Virus record (IMG/VR): IMGVR_UViG_2908567220_000002
Span: 32,001-96,000 of that record
DNA length: 64,000 nt
From: a virus
Lineage: Duplodnaviria > Heunggongvirae > Uroviricota > Caudoviricetes
Direction: 5' to 3' (one strand)
In this document: positions 37,867 through 48,592 of the stretch, piece after piece
Numbering within the stretch: position 1 is the stretch's first letter
Layout: each line of letters begins with the position of its first letter
The notes under the pieces: model-generated
What the model saw: only the letters and a program-made list of their open reading frames with translations
Told to the model about the DNA's origin: nothing
Database searches by the model: none
Translations under genes and position numbers: made by a program

Positions 37867-39166
37867 TTACACTGGTGTGTTCAGCAAATCGTTAACGGCA
37901 TCAGATGCCGGGTTACCTGCAGCCAGCGGTGCCGGTGCCCCCTGCATCAGACGATCCAGCGCAGTGTCACTGCGCGCCTGTGCACTCTGTGGTGCTGCGG
38001 CCAGAATGCGGCGGGCCGTTTCCACGGTCATACCGGGGGTTTCTGCCAGCACGCGGGCCTGTTCTTCGCGTCCGTGAGCCTCCTCACAGTTGAGGATCCC
38101 CATAATGCGGCTGTTTTCTGCCGCAACCGCTGCGGTGATCTGCGCGTTCACGTCCGGCTGCGCCGCGCTGGCGTTCTCGCCCTCCGTCGCTGGCACCACG
38201 TCAGTAACGTCAGCCTGCGAAGCAGTGGCTGAAACAGTTGTTGATTGAGTCTCTTTGGTCATTCGCCCTCCTGAGAGACGGGATTTACGTGCATCCAGTG
38301 CATCACGCATGACGGTGATCGCATCGGTACTGTTAACAAGTTCATCAGCCAGTCCGGCATCAATGGCCTCCTGACCGCTGTACACTGCAGCCTCGGTATC
38401 CAGCACAGCCTGCACGGACAGGCCGGTATATGCCGACACCTTCTGTGCAAACATCCGGCGGGTTGCATCCATCCGGGACTGCAGTGTTTCCCGGACATCA
38501 TCCGGTAGATGGCTGTAGGGGTTGCCATCCACCTTATGGCTGCCGCTGTAAATCAGCGTGATTTCCACGCCCTGTTTCTCCAGCGCAGCACCGTAATTAC
38601 TGTGAGCCATCATGACGCCGATGGAGCCTGTCCGGGCGGTCTGCGTGACCAGACGCCGGGAGGCGGCGCTGGCAAGCAGCTGACCTGCACTGCAGTTCAT
38701 GTCGTTGGCCAGCGCCCATACCGGTTTTATGTCTCGCACACGGGCGATGATGTCAGCACAGTCAAATGCTCCCGCCACCATCCCGCCCGGTGTGTCCATA
38801 TCCAGCAGAATGCCGTCCACCATCGGGTCGCTGGCAGCCTGTTGCAGACGGGCGATAATGCCGTTGTAACCGGTCATCCCCGAATACGGCTGCAGCGCCC
38901 GCGTCCGGCTGACCAGCGTGCCGGAAACCGGCAGCACGGCGATGCCGTTCATGACCTGATAACTGCGGGCCTGTCGTGGTCCGTCATCATCACCGGATAA
39001 CGCCAGCGTCGCGGGTGCCTCTCCGGCAGTCAGGCTGTCGCCGGACACCGCATCCGTCAGGCGACTGATCCCAAGCTGGCCTGCAAGCGCACAAAAGAAA
39101 ACCCGCGCATAGGCGGGTTCAAGCATCAGCGGCTCATTAAAAGCCATGCTGGCAATATGCGGGAGA

Positions 39167-39186
<20 letters not shown>
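37867..39186 (-). CDS. C: head maturation protease/scaffold C (S49 peptidase; Nu3 scaffold in frame in C-terminal part)
   Basis: matches lambda gpC from VTAELRNLPHIASMAFNEP; likely GTG start; track ORF 37867..39321 begins upstream. Confidence 0.85.
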
Positions 39187-42867
<3,681 letters not shown>

Positions 42868-42893
<26 letters not shown>

Positions 42894-43413
42894 TCAGCAA
42901 CCCCGGTATCAGTTCATCCAGCGCGGCTGCTTTGTTCATGGCTTTGATGATATCCCGTTTCAGGAAATCAACATGTCGGTTTTCCAGTTCCGGAAAACGC
43001 CGCTGTACCGAGAGAGGGATCCCGTCAAGAATACTGGCAATTTCACCTGCGATCCGTGACAGCACGAAAGTACAGAATGCGGTTTCCACCACCTCTGCGG
43101 AGTCTCTGGCATTCTTCAGCTCCTGTGCGTCGGCCTGCGCACGCGTAAGTCGATGGCGTTCGTACTCAATAGTCCCAGGCTGGAGATCTGCCTCACTGGC
43201 AGCCCTGTAATCCACAACCTCTTTACGGAGTTTTTCATTTTCGATATCAGCTTCCCTCTGCGCATACCACTGAATTGCCATGGCGGTATCAAATACAGAT
43301 TCAACGCCCTTACCACCTCCGGAGACGCAAGGGAGTCCCTGAGACTGCCAGCGTTCAATCGTTCGCGGATCCACGTTGAAAATTTCGGCAAGTTTCTTTT
43401 TATTAACCTTCAT
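42868..43413 (-). CDS. Nu1: terminase small subunit Nu1
   Basis: 181 aa, lambda Nu1-like N-terminal HTH. Confidence 0.85.
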
Positions 43414-43589
43414 GAAACAGTCTCACAATAAATACAGGGGCCGACATGAAAGTGCCCGAAAATGACTTTTTTAGGCGTTTTCATGTCGGACCTTTTACGG
43501 ATTCGATATTAGAAAAAACAAATAGTTATGTTCGAGAAGTACCGACATGATTTTCCCCGGAAAATTTTCATAAATAGCGAAAACCCGCG

Positions 43590-43601
43590 AGGTCGCCGCC
43601 C
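43590..43601 (-). other. cos cohesive-end site (cosN 12-nt overhang)
   Basis: plus AGGTCGCCGCCC is reverse complement of lambda GGGCGGCGACCT, about 180 bp upstream of Nu1 start. Confidence 0.7.
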
Positions 43602-43824
43602 CGTAACCTGTCGGATCGCCGGAAAGGACCCGCCAACGACTTTCGCGTGCAGGCATTAAAAATTTTGCAGTTCCATGCCTAGTTGAAACCTCGATTTCTA
43701 TAACATCCAATTTTGTAAATTTAGATATAGCTCAACTTTTCCCAATGTTTTCAAGTGTATAAAAACAATTGGCGTTACGCCATAACACTATACTTAGGAT
43801 AAGTAAAGATTTTAAGGAGTTTTA

Positions 43825-44892
43825 ATGAGTCAACATCAATATTACCCACAGCTGAAATGGAAGCCTGCTGAATATGAATCTCTGATGCTTTTAGATCAAA
43901 CTACGCTCTCTGGTTTTACTCCGATCATTACCATTCCAGACATAGACTGGGATTATGAAAACGAATGCTACAAGAAGAGTTTGAGTTCTTACTTATCTGA
44001 CTTCGGTATTAACCTTGCGGCATCCTGGAAAGCCAATCGTCCTGTTTTGCTGGATGTTAAATATTTAGATAAACATGGTTCGAGCCGCCATCATCCTCTA
44101 GATATGTGTATCCAAGATGCTAGAGTAAATGGTAAGGAAATTATCCCTGTTGTCTCTCCCGCATATTCAACAAACTATATACATGCTGTTCAACGCAACT
44201 TAATCAATGGGCTCGCTATATCTATCACCCCCCAGACATGGCACCAATTCACAAGTCTGGTTAACCACTTAAATATTCATCCTAGTTTAATTGATGTAAT
44301 CATTGATTTTGGAGATATTCAAAACGCAACTGATAGTTTAAAACAACAAGCATTAAGCATGGTCAACACATTATCAGGCCAAGCTCCGTGGAGAAACTTG
44401 ATTTTATCTTCAACCGCATACCCTGCATCACAGGCAGGGATACCGCAACATCAAGTTCATCATATTCCGCGCCATGAATACGATCTTTGGATGTATGTAG
44501 TACAGAATTTTAGCAATGGAAGAACGCCAAGTTTTAGTGATTATCCCACCGCTAGCTCTACCATTACGAGCGTAGACCCACGCTTCATGTCTCAGTATGT
44601 CTCAGTGAGATATTCGAACGATACCTCATGGATCTTTGTAAAAGGTACCGCAGTTAAAGGAAATGGATGGGGCCAAACTAAAAACTTATGTACTACCCTT
44701 GTTAGTTCGCCAGAGTATCAAGTCTTTGGCTCCAAATTTAGTTGGGGGGATGATTACATTTACCAAAGATCATTAGGCGCTAACAAATCTGGCGGCTCTA
44801 AAGAATGGCGTAAAGTTGCACATACGCACCATATTACGTTAGTCGTGAGACAGCTTTATTGGTTGGCGCAGACTCAGCCTGCCAAGCCTTAA
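43825..44892 (+). CDS. beta-protein-like (sce7725-like) hypothetical protein
   Basis: 355 aa; N-terminal YYPQLKWKPAEYESL resembles conserved start of beta-protein family (recalled, not searched); convergent with next gene, 59 nt 3-prime overlap. Confidence 0.45.
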   Translation: MSQHQYYPQLKWKPAEYESLMLLDQTTLSGFTPIITIPDIDWDYENECYKKSLSSYLSDFGINLAASWKANRPVLLDVKYLDKHGSSRHHPLDMCIQDARVNGKEIIPVVSPAYSTNYIHAVQRNLINGLAISITPQTWHQFTSLVNHLNIHPSLIDVIIDFGDIQNATDSLKQQALSMVNTLSGQAPWRNLILSSTAYPASQAGIPQHQVHHIPRHEYDLWMYVVQNFSNGRTPSFSDYPTASSTITSVDPRFMSQYVSVRYSNDTSWIFVKGTAVKGNGWGQTKNLCTTLVSSPEYQVFGSKFSWGDDYIYQRSLGANKSGGSKEWRKVAHTHHITLVVRQLYWLAQTQPAKP

Positions 44893-45454
44893 CTTTCCAG
44901 CCTACGCGTTTCTTTAAGGCTGTTCTGACTTCAAGCCTGAGATTCGCTATTGGAATATTTTCCGCAATAATATTCCATAACTCAAATCGGGGCTTGCTTT
45001 TGATTCCTTTGGAATAGCCCCATCGTTCAAGTACGTCGATACATTCATCTTTCCAAAGCAATTGAGCGAGCATCAATGAGTTATGGTTTCGATTAAGCTT
45101 TTCTCCACGCATGTGCTTTATAAGAATGGCGCCTTTTGGCCCAACAGAAACCGTTTTAACGCCCCACCAACCTGGGATTAACTTTAATGCTCCCTCAAGA
45201 TGTTTCTCAGCTACGACAAGAGTAACCTTGTCCATTACAGAAGAATAATGCTTGATTTGAAGAGGCAAACGCTCCAAAGAGTCATATTCACTTTTGAGCT
45301 CGTACCCGTGTATAACACCATTTATTACAGCAATGTCTGCTCTACTGGCGCCAAGGGATATGGAAAATTCATCGACCACAAGGCAGTCAGGATCTAAATG
45401 CGATTCTTTCAAAAGCTTATGATGCACCGCGAACCTAACATCTTGATCTTTCAT
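44834..45454 (-). CDS. putative PD-(D/E)xK-like nuclease-fold protein (sce7726-like)
   Basis: 206 aa; candidate D...E-x-K core in RADIAVINGVIHGYELK. Confidence 0.45.
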   Translation of the reverse strand: MKDQDVRFAVHHKLLKESHLDPDCLVVDEFSISLGASRADIAVINGVIHGYELKSEYDSLERLPLQIKHYSSVMDKVTLVVAEKHLEGALKLIPGWWGVKTVSVGPKGAILIKHMRGEKLNRNHNSLMLAQLLWKDECIDVLERWGYSKGIKSKPRFELWNIIAENIPIANLRLEVRTALKKRVGWKVKAWQAESAPTNKAVSRLT

Positions 45455-45799
45455 GACTTCTCCTTACTCCCTCCGTTACTGAATTATAGCGCACTGCATT
45501 TTACTGCATTTGAGAGATTTGACCACTTCAATCACAAAATGCTTATCTGCAGCAACAAGATTCATAGCCATACGACTATGGTGATTACCTTTTGTCTGGA
45601 AAACTGACCATTCCACGAAGATCAGATAGGTCTATAGAATCTTGGTTTGTCATAGCGTTCGCCTTACTTTGAGATGAACCTTTGCTGCATAGGAGATCAG
45701 CCCGTCAAGGCTCACCAGCACTAACTGACTACTCAAAGGCTCATTCCAAAGGGTTTGGTTCGACGTGGTTGAGTGCGCTGCGGTGCGCGGTGAAATACC

Positions 45800-45835
45800 T
45801 GTACAAAAATGCCCCGCATCTGCGAGGCATTTTCC
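45800..45835. terminator. bidirectional terminator-like hairpin between Rz and moron pair
   Basis: AAATGCCCCGCAtcTGCGAGGCATTT hairpin with T-runs on both strands. Confidence 0.35.
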
Positions 45836-45870
45836 TGAAAGTCACTTGTTAAATTTCAGTGAAATTAAAA

Positions 45871-46323
45871 TTATTTTAAGCACTGCGTCCTGATGTACTC
45901 CTGCAAGTAGTTAACCTGCGCGGTTATCTTGTCGATTCCACTTCGGAGACGGTAATAATTGAGTTCAGCATCTGCTGTAAGTCCTGGGCTTTCTCCATTG
46001 CCCATGCCGCTGGCTCCGGTCGTTGACTTTGCACAGGTGGCGGCGACTTGCAGGCGCTTACGCCCAACAGAAACATCAGCACGTAGACTTTCGATAGTCG
46101 CGTTAGCATCAGCAAGCTCCTTTGTGTATCTGGCGTCGAGTTCTGCTACATCACGTTGACGCTTCTGCATGTCAGCGATGATGTACGTGGCTTTATCGCG
46201 CTGTTCTTTATAGGTAATGGCATTATCACGGTAATGATTAACAGCCCATGACAGGCAGACGATGATGCAGATAACCAGAGCATAAATAATCGCGGCGACT
46301 CTGCTCACTGATCTATCCCCCAA
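45871..46323 (-). CDS. Rz: i-spanin Rz
   Basis: 150 aa with N-terminal TM and coiled-coil, downstream of endolysin. Confidence 0.75.
45924..46115 (-). CDS. Rz1: o-spanin Rz1 (embedded in Rz, alternate frame)
   Basis: 63 aa with lipobox LGVSAC and Pro-rich region. Confidence 0.65.
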
Positions 46324-46838
46324 CAGGCTAATGCGCTTTCCTGGTCACGACGAATAACCTGTCCATAGCAGTTATTTGAACGTATGCGGCAATCGCGCCC
46401 ACCATCTTTTATCCACCAGCGAATCGCCTCGCATGCACCTTTACGATCACCGGCATTCAGCCGCTTATAAAACGTCGACGGGAAACACTTACCGGGGCCA
46501 ATGTTATAGGGACAGAATGACGCTATACCCGCTTTTTGTGGTTCGGTCAGTGGTACTTTAATATTGCGCTCCACCCATGCCAGCGCCTTATCACGCTCAA
46601 TGGCGTTGACCTGGTCGCATTTTTCCTTCGACAGTTTCATACCGGGAAAAACGGGTTTTCCATCCACCATCGTGGCACCCCGACAGATGGTCCAGATGCC
46701 GGACCCATCGCGGTATGCCGTTGTGTGGTTACCTTCTTTTTCATCCAGAAACTGGTCGAGAATATCAGGCGCGGGCGCACCGACGGCAATCAGTGCCAGA
46801 ACGGCAGCCGACAGGCCGTATCTGATTTTTGCGTTCAT
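46305..46838 (-). CDS. R: SAR-type endolysin (lysozyme)
   Basis: 177 aa; N-terminal signal-anchor-release segment; E...D...T catalytic pattern ([19 protein letters not shown]). Confidence 0.85.
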
Positions 46839-46901: not shown

Positions 46902-47252
46902 TTAAGGTTGTGATTCCGGAGGAGTCTTCAGAGAACCAGTAATTCTTCCCGGTAGCTTTCCTTTGTAGGTTATCCATACATTCTGCGCCTCTAAAATTAC
47001 GGGGCGCTTTTCCGGCGACTGCTCATCCCCTTCACATAACCCGGCAGCAACATCCAGGAAGACCTGTCTGATGCTCATTCTGGCTGCTGCCTCATAAAAC
47101 TCCAGCGCGGCACCTTCAACACGGTCCAGCGAGATGTCCAGGTCAAAAATTTCACCGTCAAAGCGTTTTTTGTCCCGTAACGCTAAAGTTACCGTAACTT
47201 TATTCTCAAAATTGCGGATCCCTTTCACAATCAGTTCATAGTTTTGAGTCAT
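46902..47252 (-). CDS. hypothetical protein between holin and endolysin
   Basis: 116 aa ORF, no recognisable motif. Confidence 0.45.
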   Translation of the reverse strand: MTQNYELIVKGIRNFENKVTVTLALRDKKRFDGEIFDLDISLDRVEGAALEFYEAAARMSIRQVFLDVAAGLCEGDEQSPEKRPVILEAQNVWITYKGKLPGRITGSLKTPPESQP

Positions 47253-47539: not shown

Positions 47540-48592
47540 TTATTTCCCCACCAGCTCGTTTATCTCTTTCACTGTCTGGTTAAACCGCTCTGACTCAAGC
47601 TCAACACCTAAGGCCCGACGCCCCAACGCCATTGCTGCTTTTATTGTGGAACCGGATCCCATAAAAAAATCAGCAACCAGATCACCTGGTCGACTACTGG
47701 CATTGATTATTTGCCTGAGCATATCCGCCGGTTTCTCACACGGATGTTTCCCCGGGTAGAACTGAACGGGTTTATGCATCCAGACATCGGTATAAGGCAC
47801 GGAGACTGATACGGAGAAATAGCGCCGGAGAGATTTAAACTCATCCAGCAATTCAGAATATTTACGATTCAGTGAATCATAAGATGCCACCAGCTGGTGG
47901 TGTGGTTGTTCCAGTTGTTGTTCCTGAAACTTCTCTGCCGCTATACGGGAAAACAGTGCCTGTAACTTCCGATAGTCAGCCTCATTCGGCAACTGCCACT
48001 GACTGGCACCAAACCAGTGGGAAACCATATTTTTCTTACCTGTGGCTTCGGCAATTTGTTTTGCCGTTATACCCAGTTCGGCACGAGCATCCCTGAAATA
48101 CGATATCAGCGGTGCCATTATGTGCTGTTTGAGTTCCCTTTCTTTTGCTGCATAGCCGTCACTTTTGCCGCGATATGGCCCCTGGTAATGTTCAGCAAAC
48201 AGAACGCGCTCTGTGGCAGGAAAATATGCGCGCAGACTTTCTTTATTACACCCATTCCAACGTCCGGACGGCTTCGCCCAGATGATATGGTTAAGCACGT
48301 TGAAACGTTCACGCATCATGATCTCAATATCAGATGCCAGGCGATGCCCACAGAACAGGTAAAGGCTTCCGGCAGGTTTTAACACCCGCCAGAACTGGGC
48401 CAGACAGTGGTCCAGCCACTTAAGGTAATCATCGTCGCCCTTCCACTGGTTATCCCAGCCCTCAGGCTTCACTTTAAAGTACGGCGGGTCCGTGACTATC
48501 AGGTCAACAGAATTTTCGGGTAACGACCGGATAAATTCCAGGCAGTCGGCGTTGATTAACTCACAACTGGATATTTTTACAGTATTAAGCAT
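47540..48592 (-). CDS. DNA methyltransferase, probably N6-adenine (DPPY motif)
   Basis: 350 aa; catalytic IVTDPPYF, C-terminal SAM-binding DFFMGSGST. Confidence 0.8.

What the first reader, a model, noticed from the sequence alone, without database searches (positions are those of the whole stretch)
43825..45454. Convergent beta-protein-like and PD-(D/E)xK-like gene pair at the Rz-cos moron hotspot
Between the spanin genes and cos (where lambda carries bor) prophage B has a 355 aa plus-strand gene whose N-terminus (YYPQLKWKPAEYESL) resembles the beta-protein/sce7725 family, and a 206 aa minus-strand gene with a candidate PD-(D/E)xK core (D...ELK). Their 3-prime ends overlap by 59 nt, and a bidirectional terminator-like hairpin separates them from Rz. 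Such two-gene pairs of unknown function in phage accessory hotspots are candidate defence or toxin-immunity systems. Family assignments are from memory of motifs, not a search.
Basis: partly seen in the sequence, partly recalled or inferred. Interest (0 to 1): 0.7.

Follow-up and report, generated by a model that had tools for sequence, protein, structure and literature searches.

The report
Gop-less beta/cII prophage defence pair
Between the lysis genes and cos of a lambda-like E. coli prophage sits an imported two-gene cassette, a TIM-barrel "beta" protein and a convergent nuclease-fold "sce7726/P4 cII" protein; it is the stripped-down core of the known P4 gop-beta-cII anti-phage system, so it is a likely but untested defence module rather than something new in kind.

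Summary
A 355-aa + strand ORF (43825-44892) and a 206-aa - strand ORF (44834-45454) converge with a 59-nt 3' overlap. They lie between an exact lambda cosN (43557-43601) and the Rz terminator hairpin (45806-45833).

- The 355-aa protein is a full-length Pfam Beta_protein (E 8e-56), modelled as a TIM barrel.
- The two genes co-occur as a convergent pair in 142 of 143 fetched loci, from Enterobacterales to Bacteroidota, Bacillus and Gordonia phages. They are typically in prophage hotspots or islands that also carry known defence genes.

The cassette is the beta + cII part of the P4 gop-beta-cII anti-phage system, without the gop membrane toxin. RefSeq already names both proteins.

Most likely it is a prophage-borne abortive-infection or exclusion module. 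In that reading the nuclease is the effector and beta is the sensor or restraint; this assignment of roles is inferred, not shown.

I rate it a new architectural variant of a known kind, of moderate interest.

The parts
43825..44892 (+). beta-family gene (355 aa); TIM-barrel protein, candidate sensor/regulator or enzyme
44834..45454 (-). sce7726 / P4-cII-family gene (206 aa); PD-(D/E)xK nuclease-fold protein with a C-terminal helical domain, candidate effector
44834..44892 (.). 59-nt tail-to-tail overlap of the two coding regions
   Evidence: Convergent abutment is found in all but one of the fetched loci, but overlap length varies from -27 to +110 nt. No significant terminator structure lies downstream of either stop codon, so read-through antisense transcription is plausible; this is an inference.
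43721..43824 (+). conserved upstream block of the beta gene (TTAGAT...TCAA...TTTTCA...TATAAA at 43758-43763, RBS 43814-43819); presumed own promoter
   Evidence: An alignment of seven loci from different genomic contexts shows conserved motifs that travel with the gene. Promoter function is inferred.
45455..45560 (-). conserved upstream block of the sce7726 gene: promoter-like hexamers (TGGTCA 45525-45520 / TAAAAT 45503-45498; also TATAAT 45488-45483) and a tandem direct repeat AAATGCAGT at 45511-45503 and 45501-45493, a candidate operator
   Evidence: Promoter scan hit. In a seven-locus alignment this block is nearly invariant while the surrounding DNA is not. The 46-aa ORF called here (45476..45616) is not conserved as a protein.
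45806..45833 (-). Rz-downstream intrinsic terminator hairpin that insulates the cassette from late transcription
   Evidence: 13-nt arms, 92% complementary. (-22.6 kcal/mol, z -5.3, U-tract on the - strand; -14.2 kcal/mol on the + strand).
45650..45721 (-). 5' remnant of a P22-type rha gene; right junction of the imported cassette
   Evidence: Window 45650-45900 is 88% identical to the P22 Rz/rha junction, and the homology stops at 45650.
43557..43601 (-). lambda cosN (context: left limit of the cargo slot)
   Evidence: Exact 45-nt match, with 0 expected by chance.

Best explanation
The cassette is a horizontally acquired, self-promoted two-gene module carried as cargo ('moron') in the Rz-cos slot of a lambdoid, probably defective, E. 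coli prophage. It consists of a beta-family TIM-barrel protein and a convergently transcribed sce7726/P4-cII-family PD-(D/E)xK nuclease-fold protein. This is the conserved core of the P4 gop-beta-cII anti-phage system, without the Gop membrane toxin.

Most likely it protects the lysogen against superinfecting phages in an abortive-infection or toxin-antitoxin-like manner. In this model the sce7726 protein is a metal-dependent DNase effector. Beta restrains it or senses a phage-encoded trigger. The tail-to-tail arrangement, each gene with its own conserved promoter block, couples the expression of the two genes.

Shown here: family membership, folds, catalytic-motif conservation, near-obligate gene linkage, purifying selection, foreign base composition, and placement in hotspots and in islands that also carry known defence genes.

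Inferred: anti-phage function for this gop-less form, which protein is the effector and which the sensor, and any role for antisense transcription.
For: Identity.
- HMM hits identify both proteins.
- RefSeq annotates them as 'beta family protein' and 'sce7726 family protein'.
- P4 has the same convergent beta (355 aa) / cII layout.

Linkage.
- In 142 of 143 fetched loci with sce7726, a convergent beta gene is directly downstream.
- In all 11 loci with room, found by scanning one genome per species, the pair is intact. These include Bacteroidota, Bacillus and Photobacterium.
- The same layout occurs in Gordonia and Mycolicibacterium phages.
- Divergence of the two proteins is correlated across loci (Pearson 0.94).

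Nuclease.
- The fold is PD-(D/E)xK.
- E29/D40/E52xK54/Q66 are invariant even in P4 cII.

Beta.
- It is a TIM barrel with a family-wide conserved set of acidic, basic and histidine residues.

Selection and origin.
- dN/dS is 0.05-0.09.
- Cassette GC is 40.7%, against 49-54% in the flanks.

Context.
- The same Rz-terminase slot holds the pair in Klebsiella prophages and different cargo in phage IdasGreatGrand.
- Elsewhere the pair sits beside an MvaI/BcnI-type restriction gene and a DNA methylase plus an integrase, next to Shedu SduA and a KAP NTPase, and near SRA-HNH plus an integrase and near Rz/Rha.

Experimental precedent.
- gop-beta-cII protects against lambda and P1 (PMC9122126).
- A coliphage accessory gene, orf184, triggers its toxicity (bioRxiv 10.1101/2023.04.06.535777).
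- The beta-like PD-lambda-2C is required for defence but not for neutralising the toxin (PMC9519451). That fits a sensor or accessory role for beta.
Against: - No experiment addresses a gop-less pair. In P4 the only component with demonstrated toxicity is Gop, which is absent here, so the effector assignment to the nuclease is a guess.
- P4 cII was named for a plaque phenotype. It could be a regulator rather than a nuclease.
- Beta's many conserved polar residues suggest an enzyme rather than a passive antitoxin.
- The window protein has Ser at position 133, where 97% of the family has Arg.
- sce7726-like nuclease domains occur without beta in about 290 lytic Staphylococcus, Bacillus and Lactobacillus phage records. 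The nuclease fold is therefore not defence-specific.
- The PADLOC library has no system definition that this pair alone would satisfy (my knowledge of PADLOC and DefenseFinder rules, not tested here).
Confidence: 0.6

Rival explanations
1. It is a pure addiction (toxin-antitoxin) module. The nuclease is a toxin and beta its antidote, or the reverse, and the pair merely stabilises the prophage or island in the chromosome without sensing phages.
For: - P4 beta neutralises a toxin (Ghisotti 1990, as cited in PMC9122126).
- The pair is retained intact in a prophage whose portal and protease genes are frameshifted.
- It is always inherited as a unit.
- In Rac-SA53 it sits next to hok/mok.
Against: - Related systems give measurable anti-phage phenotypes (PMC9122126, PMC9519451).
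- A 355-aa TIM barrel with conserved catalytic-looking residues is atypical for an antitoxin.
- IS1 disruption of beta is tolerated in at least one genome (H13). That argues against beta being an essential antidote, although compensating changes were not examined.
Confidence: 0.15
2. It serves the phage itself, in DNA metabolism, recombination or lysogeny control, rather than host defence. It would be a nuclease with an accessory enzyme that helps the carrying element replicate or regulate itself.
For: - P4 cII was named from a plaque-type phenotype (my recollection of Ghisotti 1990; the paper could not be read).
- sce7726-like domains are common in virulent Staphylococcus and Bacillus phages.
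- One Gordonia phage homologue is annotated 'exonuclease'.
Against: - The genes are non-essential in P4 (PMC9122126).
- The pair occupies variable cargo slots, has foreign GC and has its own promoter blocks.
- It also occurs outside prophages, next to known defence genes.
- It is present in only 126 + 93 of 5426 complete E. coli genomes, although the flanking phage DNA is found in more than 4600.
Confidence: 0.12
3. It is a restriction-modification-like system. Beta would be a TIM-barrel enzyme that modifies DNA or a nucleotide pool, as DpdA/TGT-type transglycosylases do, and sce7726 would be the cognate endonuclease that cuts unmodified, or modified, DNA.
For: - Beta has an enzyme-like set of conserved residues.
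- Convergent gene pairs are common among restriction-modification systems (general knowledge).
- The nuclease fold is that of restriction enzymes.
Against: - The DpdA hit is no better than dozens of unrelated TIM barrels, at <=10% identity.
- No sequence hit to any solved enzyme was found.
- In P4, beta counteracts a membrane protein. In PD-lambda-2 a beta-like protein works with a HigB/Xre-peptidase pair and no nuclease (PMC9519451).
Confidence: 0.08

Closest known systems
Satellite phage P4 gop-beta-cII anti-phage system (Ghisotti 1990; Rousset 2022, PMC9122126; PADLOC/DefenseFinder 'gop_beta_cll')
   Same: - A beta-family protein of identical length (355 aa) is convergent with a cII/sce7726-family protein.
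- Both sit in a cos-adjacent variable hotspot of a mobile element.
- PADLOC 'beta' and 'cll' HMMs hit.
- The catalytic-type residues of cII are conserved.
   Different: - There is no gop gene (tblastn negative). Gop homologues are confined to the P4-type clade, which was also found in Pseudomonas, Achromobacter, Aeromonas and Serratia.
- The cII-like protein here is short (206 aa against 229-270 aa) and overlaps beta instead of being separated by a terminator.
- Identity is only 22% for beta and 26% for cII.
PD-lambda-2 (Vassallo 2022, PMC9519451)
   Same: Its third component, C, is a beta-family protein. The best PADLOC hit of the window protein is PD-Lambda-2_C (E 4.4e-32, residues 141-344). 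It is also a prophage or mobile-element-borne system active against lambda.
   Different: PD-lambda-2 pairs the beta-like protein with a HigB-like protein and an Xre-peptidase fusion. Neither is present here, and PD-lambda-2 has no sce7726 nuclease.
NCBIfam sce7726 family, and the sce7725/sce7726 gene pair as I recall it from the NCBIfam description
   Same: The 206-aa protein scores 184 bits against a cut-off of 70. It is encoded next to a beta-type partner, as that family is described.
   Different: Neither the partner here nor any of six other beta proteins tested gave a hit to an sce7725 model. PGAP names the partner only 'beta family protein'.
PD-(D/E)xK nucleases of the MmcB-like (3dnx) / Can2 / NucS / RecB-Cas4 type
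   Same: It has the alpha-beta-beta-beta-alpha-beta core with D, ExK and a following QxxxY helix.

Membership tests
Pfam PF14350 Beta_protein | Whole-protein HMM score above the gathering threshold, covering the full model | tested here: met
   190.4 bits against a cut-off of 27, E 8.2e-56; residues 6-342 match model positions 1-342 of 342.
NCBIfam NF033832 sce7726 family (= Pfam PF26915 Phage_P4_cII) | HMM score above the curated cut-off | tested here: met
   183.7 bits against a cut-off of 70, E 3.1e-54; residues 1-183. Close homologues carry precomputed PF26915. PF26915 was absent from the local Pfam copy, which gave no hit.
NCBIfam sce7725 family | HMM hit to the sce7725 model | tested here: not met
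   No hit at E<=1 for the window protein, and none at E<=0.01 for six other beta proteins. I could not verify that the model is in the library, so this may reflect a narrow or missing model.
gop-beta-cII system (P4 type) | Presence of a gop gene (about 130-aa two-TM protein) immediately upstream of beta | tested here: not met
   tblastn with P4 Gop finds nothing in the window or in any gop-less-clade locus. The 104 nt upstream of beta are a conserved promoter-like block, not a gene.
gop-beta-cII system (P4 type) | A beta homologue and a cII homologue in convergent orientation | tested here: met
   PADLOC 'beta' 3.5e-10 and 'cll' 3e-31. The layout is as in P4.
gop-beta-cII system (P4 type) | Protection against phages (lambda, P1); toxicity triggered by phage orf184 | not testable with these tools
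   Known only for the three-gene systems (PMC9122126; bioRxiv 10.1101/2023.04.06.535777).
PD-lambda-2 | Three components: HigB-like A, Xre-peptidase B, beta-like C | tested here: not met
   Only C has a counterpart. No other conserved gene exists between cosN and the Rz terminator.
PD-(D/E)xK nuclease superfamily | Core fold plus conserved D...(D/E)xK catalytic residues | tested here: met
PD-(D/E)xK nuclease superfamily | Metal-dependent nuclease activity | not testable with these tools
   Requires biochemistry.
TIM-barrel (beta/alpha)8 enzymes | Eight-fold beta/alpha barrel with conserved residues at the C-terminal strand ends | tested here: inconclusive
Type II toxin-antitoxin module | One product toxic alone and neutralised by the other | not testable with these tools
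   Requires expression experiments. The convergent layout differs from the usual co-directional toxin-antitoxin operon.

The most novel reading that the evidence does not exclude
The convergent beta + sce7726 pair, not the three-gene P4 locus, is the ancestral and widespread form of this system; the beta family alone has about 3,000 clusters at 50% identity. It would be a minimal two-gene immune module found across bacterial phyla. In it, a TIM-barrel enzyme or sensor detects a phage cue, or makes or destroys a small molecule, and gates a RecB/Cas4-like nuclease. Gop in P4 and HigB/Xre-peptidase in PD-lambda-2 would be alternative effectors later bolted onto the same sensor. The nearly universal tail-to-tail, terminator-less arrangement would itself be a regulatory device. 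Current defence-finding tools would miss all such gop-less loci.
Probability: 0.3. Interest if true: 0.65.

Novelty: new variant of a known kind. Interest (0 to 1): 0.45.

Why it matters
The mechanism of gop-beta-cII and the role of beta-like proteins in PD-lambda-2 are unknown.

A naturally gop-less pair has only two genes, each with its own conserved promoter block. It is present in about 4% of complete E. coli genomes as two lineages (126 + 93 of 5426). That gives a minimal and genetically tractable version in which three questions can be asked:
- whether the nuclease is an effector;
- what the TIM-barrel protein senses or catalyses;
- why the convergent architecture is conserved across phyla.

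It also points to a blind spot. If system rules that require gop are applied, the much more widespread two-gene form would go uncounted in defence-system censuses.

For annotation of this window, it explains the low-GC island between Rz and cos as defence-type cargo that replaced a P22-like rha gene.

Tried and rejected
1. A third gene. The 46-aa ORF 45476..45616 (-) lies upstream of sce7726. Only its last 20 codons are conserved, and they coincide with the promoter/operator DNA block. The 46-aa genes called at Klebsiella loci lie elsewhere. I rejected it as a gene.

2. A gop homologue in or near the window. None was found.

3. Sequence relatives with solved structures, for either protein. None was significant.

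5. A terminator inside the convergent overlap. None was significant (z -1.9 and +0.8).

6. Reading Ghisotti 1990 (PMC249035). The paper is not held, so statements about it come from Rousset 2022 or from my memory.

7. Literature searches for PF14350, sce7726, 'beta family protein' and gop_beta_cll. They gave no mechanistic work beyond three papers. [quoted passage not shown]

8. Near-identical DNA in sequenced phages. None was found; only the flanks match.

Full report
**1. Observation**

The window is 100% identical to the E. coli WP5-S17-ESBL-10 chromosome.

The two ORFs are exactly as described:
- 43825..44892 (+), 355 aa, with AAGGAG 6 nt upstream of the ATG.
- 44834..45454 (-), 206 aa, with a long purine-rich RBS.
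- Their 3' ends overlap by 59 nt.

The genes lie in the minus-strand late region of a lambdoid prophage. The order on the phage strand is holin, lysozyme (46305..46838), Rz/Rz1 (45871..46323), the cassette, cos, a Nu1-like gene (42868..43413), then the large terminase (40968..42893).
- An exact 45-nt lambda cosN is at 43557-43601.
It is a strong terminator for the Rz transcript (-22.6 kcal/mol, z -5.3, U-tract) and a weaker one on the other strand.

PGAP marks the portal and S49 protease genes of this prophage as frameshifted. The prophage is therefore probably defective, while the cassette is intact.

**2. What the two proteins are**

The 355-aa protein:
- It is a full-length Pfam Beta_protein (PF14350, E 8.2e-56).
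- It hits PADLOC PD-Lambda-2_C (4.4e-32) and the P4 'beta' model (3.5e-10).
- It hits phrog_9159.

The 206-aa protein:
- It had no hit in the local Pfam copy.
- It is an NCBIfam sce7726-family member (E 3.1e-54).
- It hits the PADLOC 'cll' model (3e-31).
- Its homologues carry the newer Pfam PF26915 'Phage_P4_cII'.

RefSeq already annotates the two as 'beta family protein' and 'sce7726 family protein'. No beta protein tested hit an sce7725 NCBIfam model.

**3. Structures**

The sce7726 protein:
- The model is confident (pLDDT 89.7), except for residues 192-206.
- E29, R38, D40, E52, K54 and Q66 are invariant, and Y70 nearly so, across 47 homologues including P4 cII.
- This gives D...ExK followed by a QxxxY helix. 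From my own knowledge, that is the motif set of RecB/Cas4-type nucleases.

The beta protein:
- The model (pLDDT 92.1, pTM 0.91) is a TIM barrel.
- No solved structure is a sequence relative of either protein.
- Among 151 diverse family representatives (median 29% identity), E16, D77, D161, R216, D239, Y240, R262, Y263, Q284, D309, H335 and H336 are at least 91% conserved.
- That pattern suggests a catalytic or ligand-binding pocket. It does not look like a passive antitoxin.
- Position 133 is Arg in 97% of the family but Ser in the window protein.

**4. Linkage and architecture**

In phage P4 the order is gop (+), beta (+, also 355 aa), then cII (-), convergent with a terminator between beta and cII.

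The same convergent beta/sce7726 pair, without gop, is present in:
- Escherichia phage Rac-SA53;
- Gordonia phages DumpsterDude and Powerball;
- Mycolicibacterium phage Mycofy1;
- all 11 loci long enough to judge that were recovered from the one-genome-per-species collection. These include two Bacteroidota MAGs, a Bacillus, Photobacterium, Samsonia and Xenorhabdus.

An HMM scan of the 144 loci fetched by then gave these results:
- 142 of 143 sce7726 genes have a convergent beta gene directly downstream.
- The 3' overlap ranges from -27 to +110 nt, with modes at 59 (this lineage), 41 (Rac type) and 11 (Klebsiella type).
- Many of these loci are near-identical copies, so the number of independent lineages is roughly a dozen.

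The one exception, L104, has a truncated Ser/Thr kinase and a PP2C-like gene in place of beta.

Divergence of the two proteins is correlated across loci (Pearson 0.94). They are inherited as a unit.

Two clades emerge.
- The P4 type has a Gop homologue (126-137 aa, two TM helices), beta, and a long cII (229-270 aa) that does not overlap beta. It was also found in Pseudomonas, Achromobacter, Aeromonas and Serratia.
- The gop-less type has a short cII (188-206 aa) that usually overlaps beta. The window belongs to this clade.

The beta family is large: 3,757 clusters at 50% identity with E<=1e-3, and 2,950 with E<=1e-10.

sce7726-like nuclease domains also occur alone, in about 290 lytic Staphylococcus, Bacillus and Lactobacillus phage records.

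**5. Limits and regulation of the cassette**

Limits:
- GC falls to 38-44% from about 43400 to 45800. The cassette is at 40.7%, against 49-54% in the flanks.
- On the right, homology to the P22 Rz-rha junction stops at 45650, leaving a roughly 70-nt rha 5' remnant.
- On the left, the cassette abuts the cos region.

Regulation:
- Both genes carry upstream blocks that stay conserved when the pair sits in quite different contexts (E. coli, Klebsiella, Edwardsiella, Pectobacterium, Pantoea, Providencia).
- For sce7726 this is a nearly invariant stretch with promoter-like hexamers and a tandem AAATGCAGT repeat at 45511-45493.
- For beta it is a TTAGAT...TATAAA block.
- The 46-aa ORF in the sce7726 leader is not conserved as a protein.
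- No significant terminator lies behind either stop codon, so convergent read-through is plausible. This is an inference.

Both genes are under strong purifying selection (dN/dS 0.05-0.09).

**6. Context**

- The identical Rz-to-terminase slot holds the pair in Klebsiella prophages. In phage IdasGreatGrand it holds an anti-repressor plus a hypothetical gene.
- In the Xenorhabdus locus L016 the pair lies next to Rz and Rha genes, with a tape-measure gene rather than a terminase on the other side.
- From textbook knowledge, lambda has bor in this slot and P22 has rha.
- Flank DNA occurs in more than 4,600 of 5,426 complete E. coli genomes. The cassette occurs in only 126. The Rac-type lineage occurs in 93 more.
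- In Providencia the pair sits in an integrase island with a PDDEXK_4 gene, an MvaI/BcnI-type restriction gene and a DNA methylase.
- In Vibrio it is next to an integrase.
- In Chryseobacterium a Shedu SduA gene lies one gene upstream and a KAP NTPase gene lies directly downstream.
- In Photobacterium it lies between an integrase and an unannotated gene that follows an SRA-HNH gene.

**7. Function**

Published experiments exist only for relatives.
- P4 gop-beta-cII protects against lambda and P1, and Gop is toxic without beta (PMC9122126, citing Ghisotti 1990).
- A coliphage accessory gene, orf184, triggers gop-beta-cII-dependent cell death (bioRxiv 10.1101/2023.04.06.535777).
- In PD-lambda-2 the beta-like component C is needed for defence but not to neutralise the toxin (PMC9519451).

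Taken with the anatomy above, the best-supported reading is a prophage-borne abortive-infection or exclusion module. The PD-(D/E)xK protein would be the effector, and the TIM-barrel protein would sense the phage or restrain the nuclease. I put about 0.6 on an anti-phage role and about 0.35 on this division of labour.

Rivals are a pure addiction module, a function for the carrying phage itself, and a restriction-modification-like enzyme pair. Evidence for and against each is given in the rival entries.

**8. Novelty and verdict**

The families, the gene pair and the defence activity of the three-gene P4 relative are already known, and RefSeq names both proteins.

What is not in the literature I could search is:
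- the recognition that the gop-less, convergent two-gene form is the widespread core, found across several bacterial phyla;
- any test of that form.

I therefore rate it a new variant of a known kind, with interest of about 0.45. It is a good minimal model for an unsolved defence mechanism, not a surprise in kind.

Noticed in passing
window about 37867-40768 (portal and S49 protease region); L001 459-3349: PGAP marks the phage portal gene (frameshifted, internal stop) and the S49 family peptidase gene (frameshifted) as pseudogenes. The prophage carrying the cassette is therefore probably defective, while the cassette stays intact.
   Followed up: partly
window 45650-45721 (-): A roughly 70-nt 5' remnant of a P22-type rha gene. 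Homology to the P22 Rz-rha junction (88%) ends abruptly at 45650, which marks the recombination junction where the cassette replaced rha.
   Followed up: yes
L104 5414-8821 (IMG/VR UViG_2684622845_000002): The only sce7726 gene without a beta partner. It follows Rz/Rz1 in the same orientation and is followed by a truncated Ser/Thr-kinase-like ORF, a PP2C-phosphatase-like ORF and a Rha-like gene. The domain labels are my reading of the translations, not HMM hits.
   Followed up: partly
L146-L149 (Pseudomonas syringae, Achromobacter, Aeromonas, Serratia ficaria): Gop homologues (126-137 aa, two predicted TM helices plus a conserved IAAYLA...A(M/I)PR C-terminal motif) sit immediately upstream of P4-type beta genes well outside P4 satellites. 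They are always found with a long (229-270 aa), non-overlapping cII.
   Followed up: partly
window 45493-45511 (-): A perfect tandem direct repeat, AAATGCAGT-A-AAATGCAGT, lies inside the promoter-like region of the sce7726 gene. It is nearly invariant in loci from six genera and is a possible operator for autoregulation.
   Followed up: partly
window protein residue 133 (codon at 44221-44223): The beta family has Arg at this position in 97% of 151 diverse members. The window protein and its close relatives have Ser, Lys or Thr. The significance is unknown.
   Followed up: no
hit H13, NZ_CP042892.1 411412-414658: In E. coli O10:H32 NMBU-W12E19 the beta gene is split by an IS1A insertion while the sce7726 gene is still annotated. 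This is a natural beta knockout, worth checking for compensating mutations in the nuclease.
   Followed up: no
phage records H50-H77 (for example Bacillus phages SBSphiJ and Grass, Staphylococcus phages): sce7726-like nuclease domains (27-29% identity over 60-80% of the query) occur in about 290 virulent Staphylococcus, Bacillus and Lactobacillus phage records with no beta homologue.
   Followed up: no
window 43433-43497: An inverted repeat with 30-nt arms (77% complementary, 5-nt spacer) lies between the Nu1-like start codon and cosN, in the region where lambda has cosB. It is not part of the cassette.
   Followed up: no
window 47540-48592 (-) and 46902-47252 (-): A 350-aa DNA methyltransferase gene and a YdfR-family gene sit in the late region close to the holin gene, upstream of the lysozyme/Rz genes. 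This is further accessory cargo in the same prophage.
   Followed up: no
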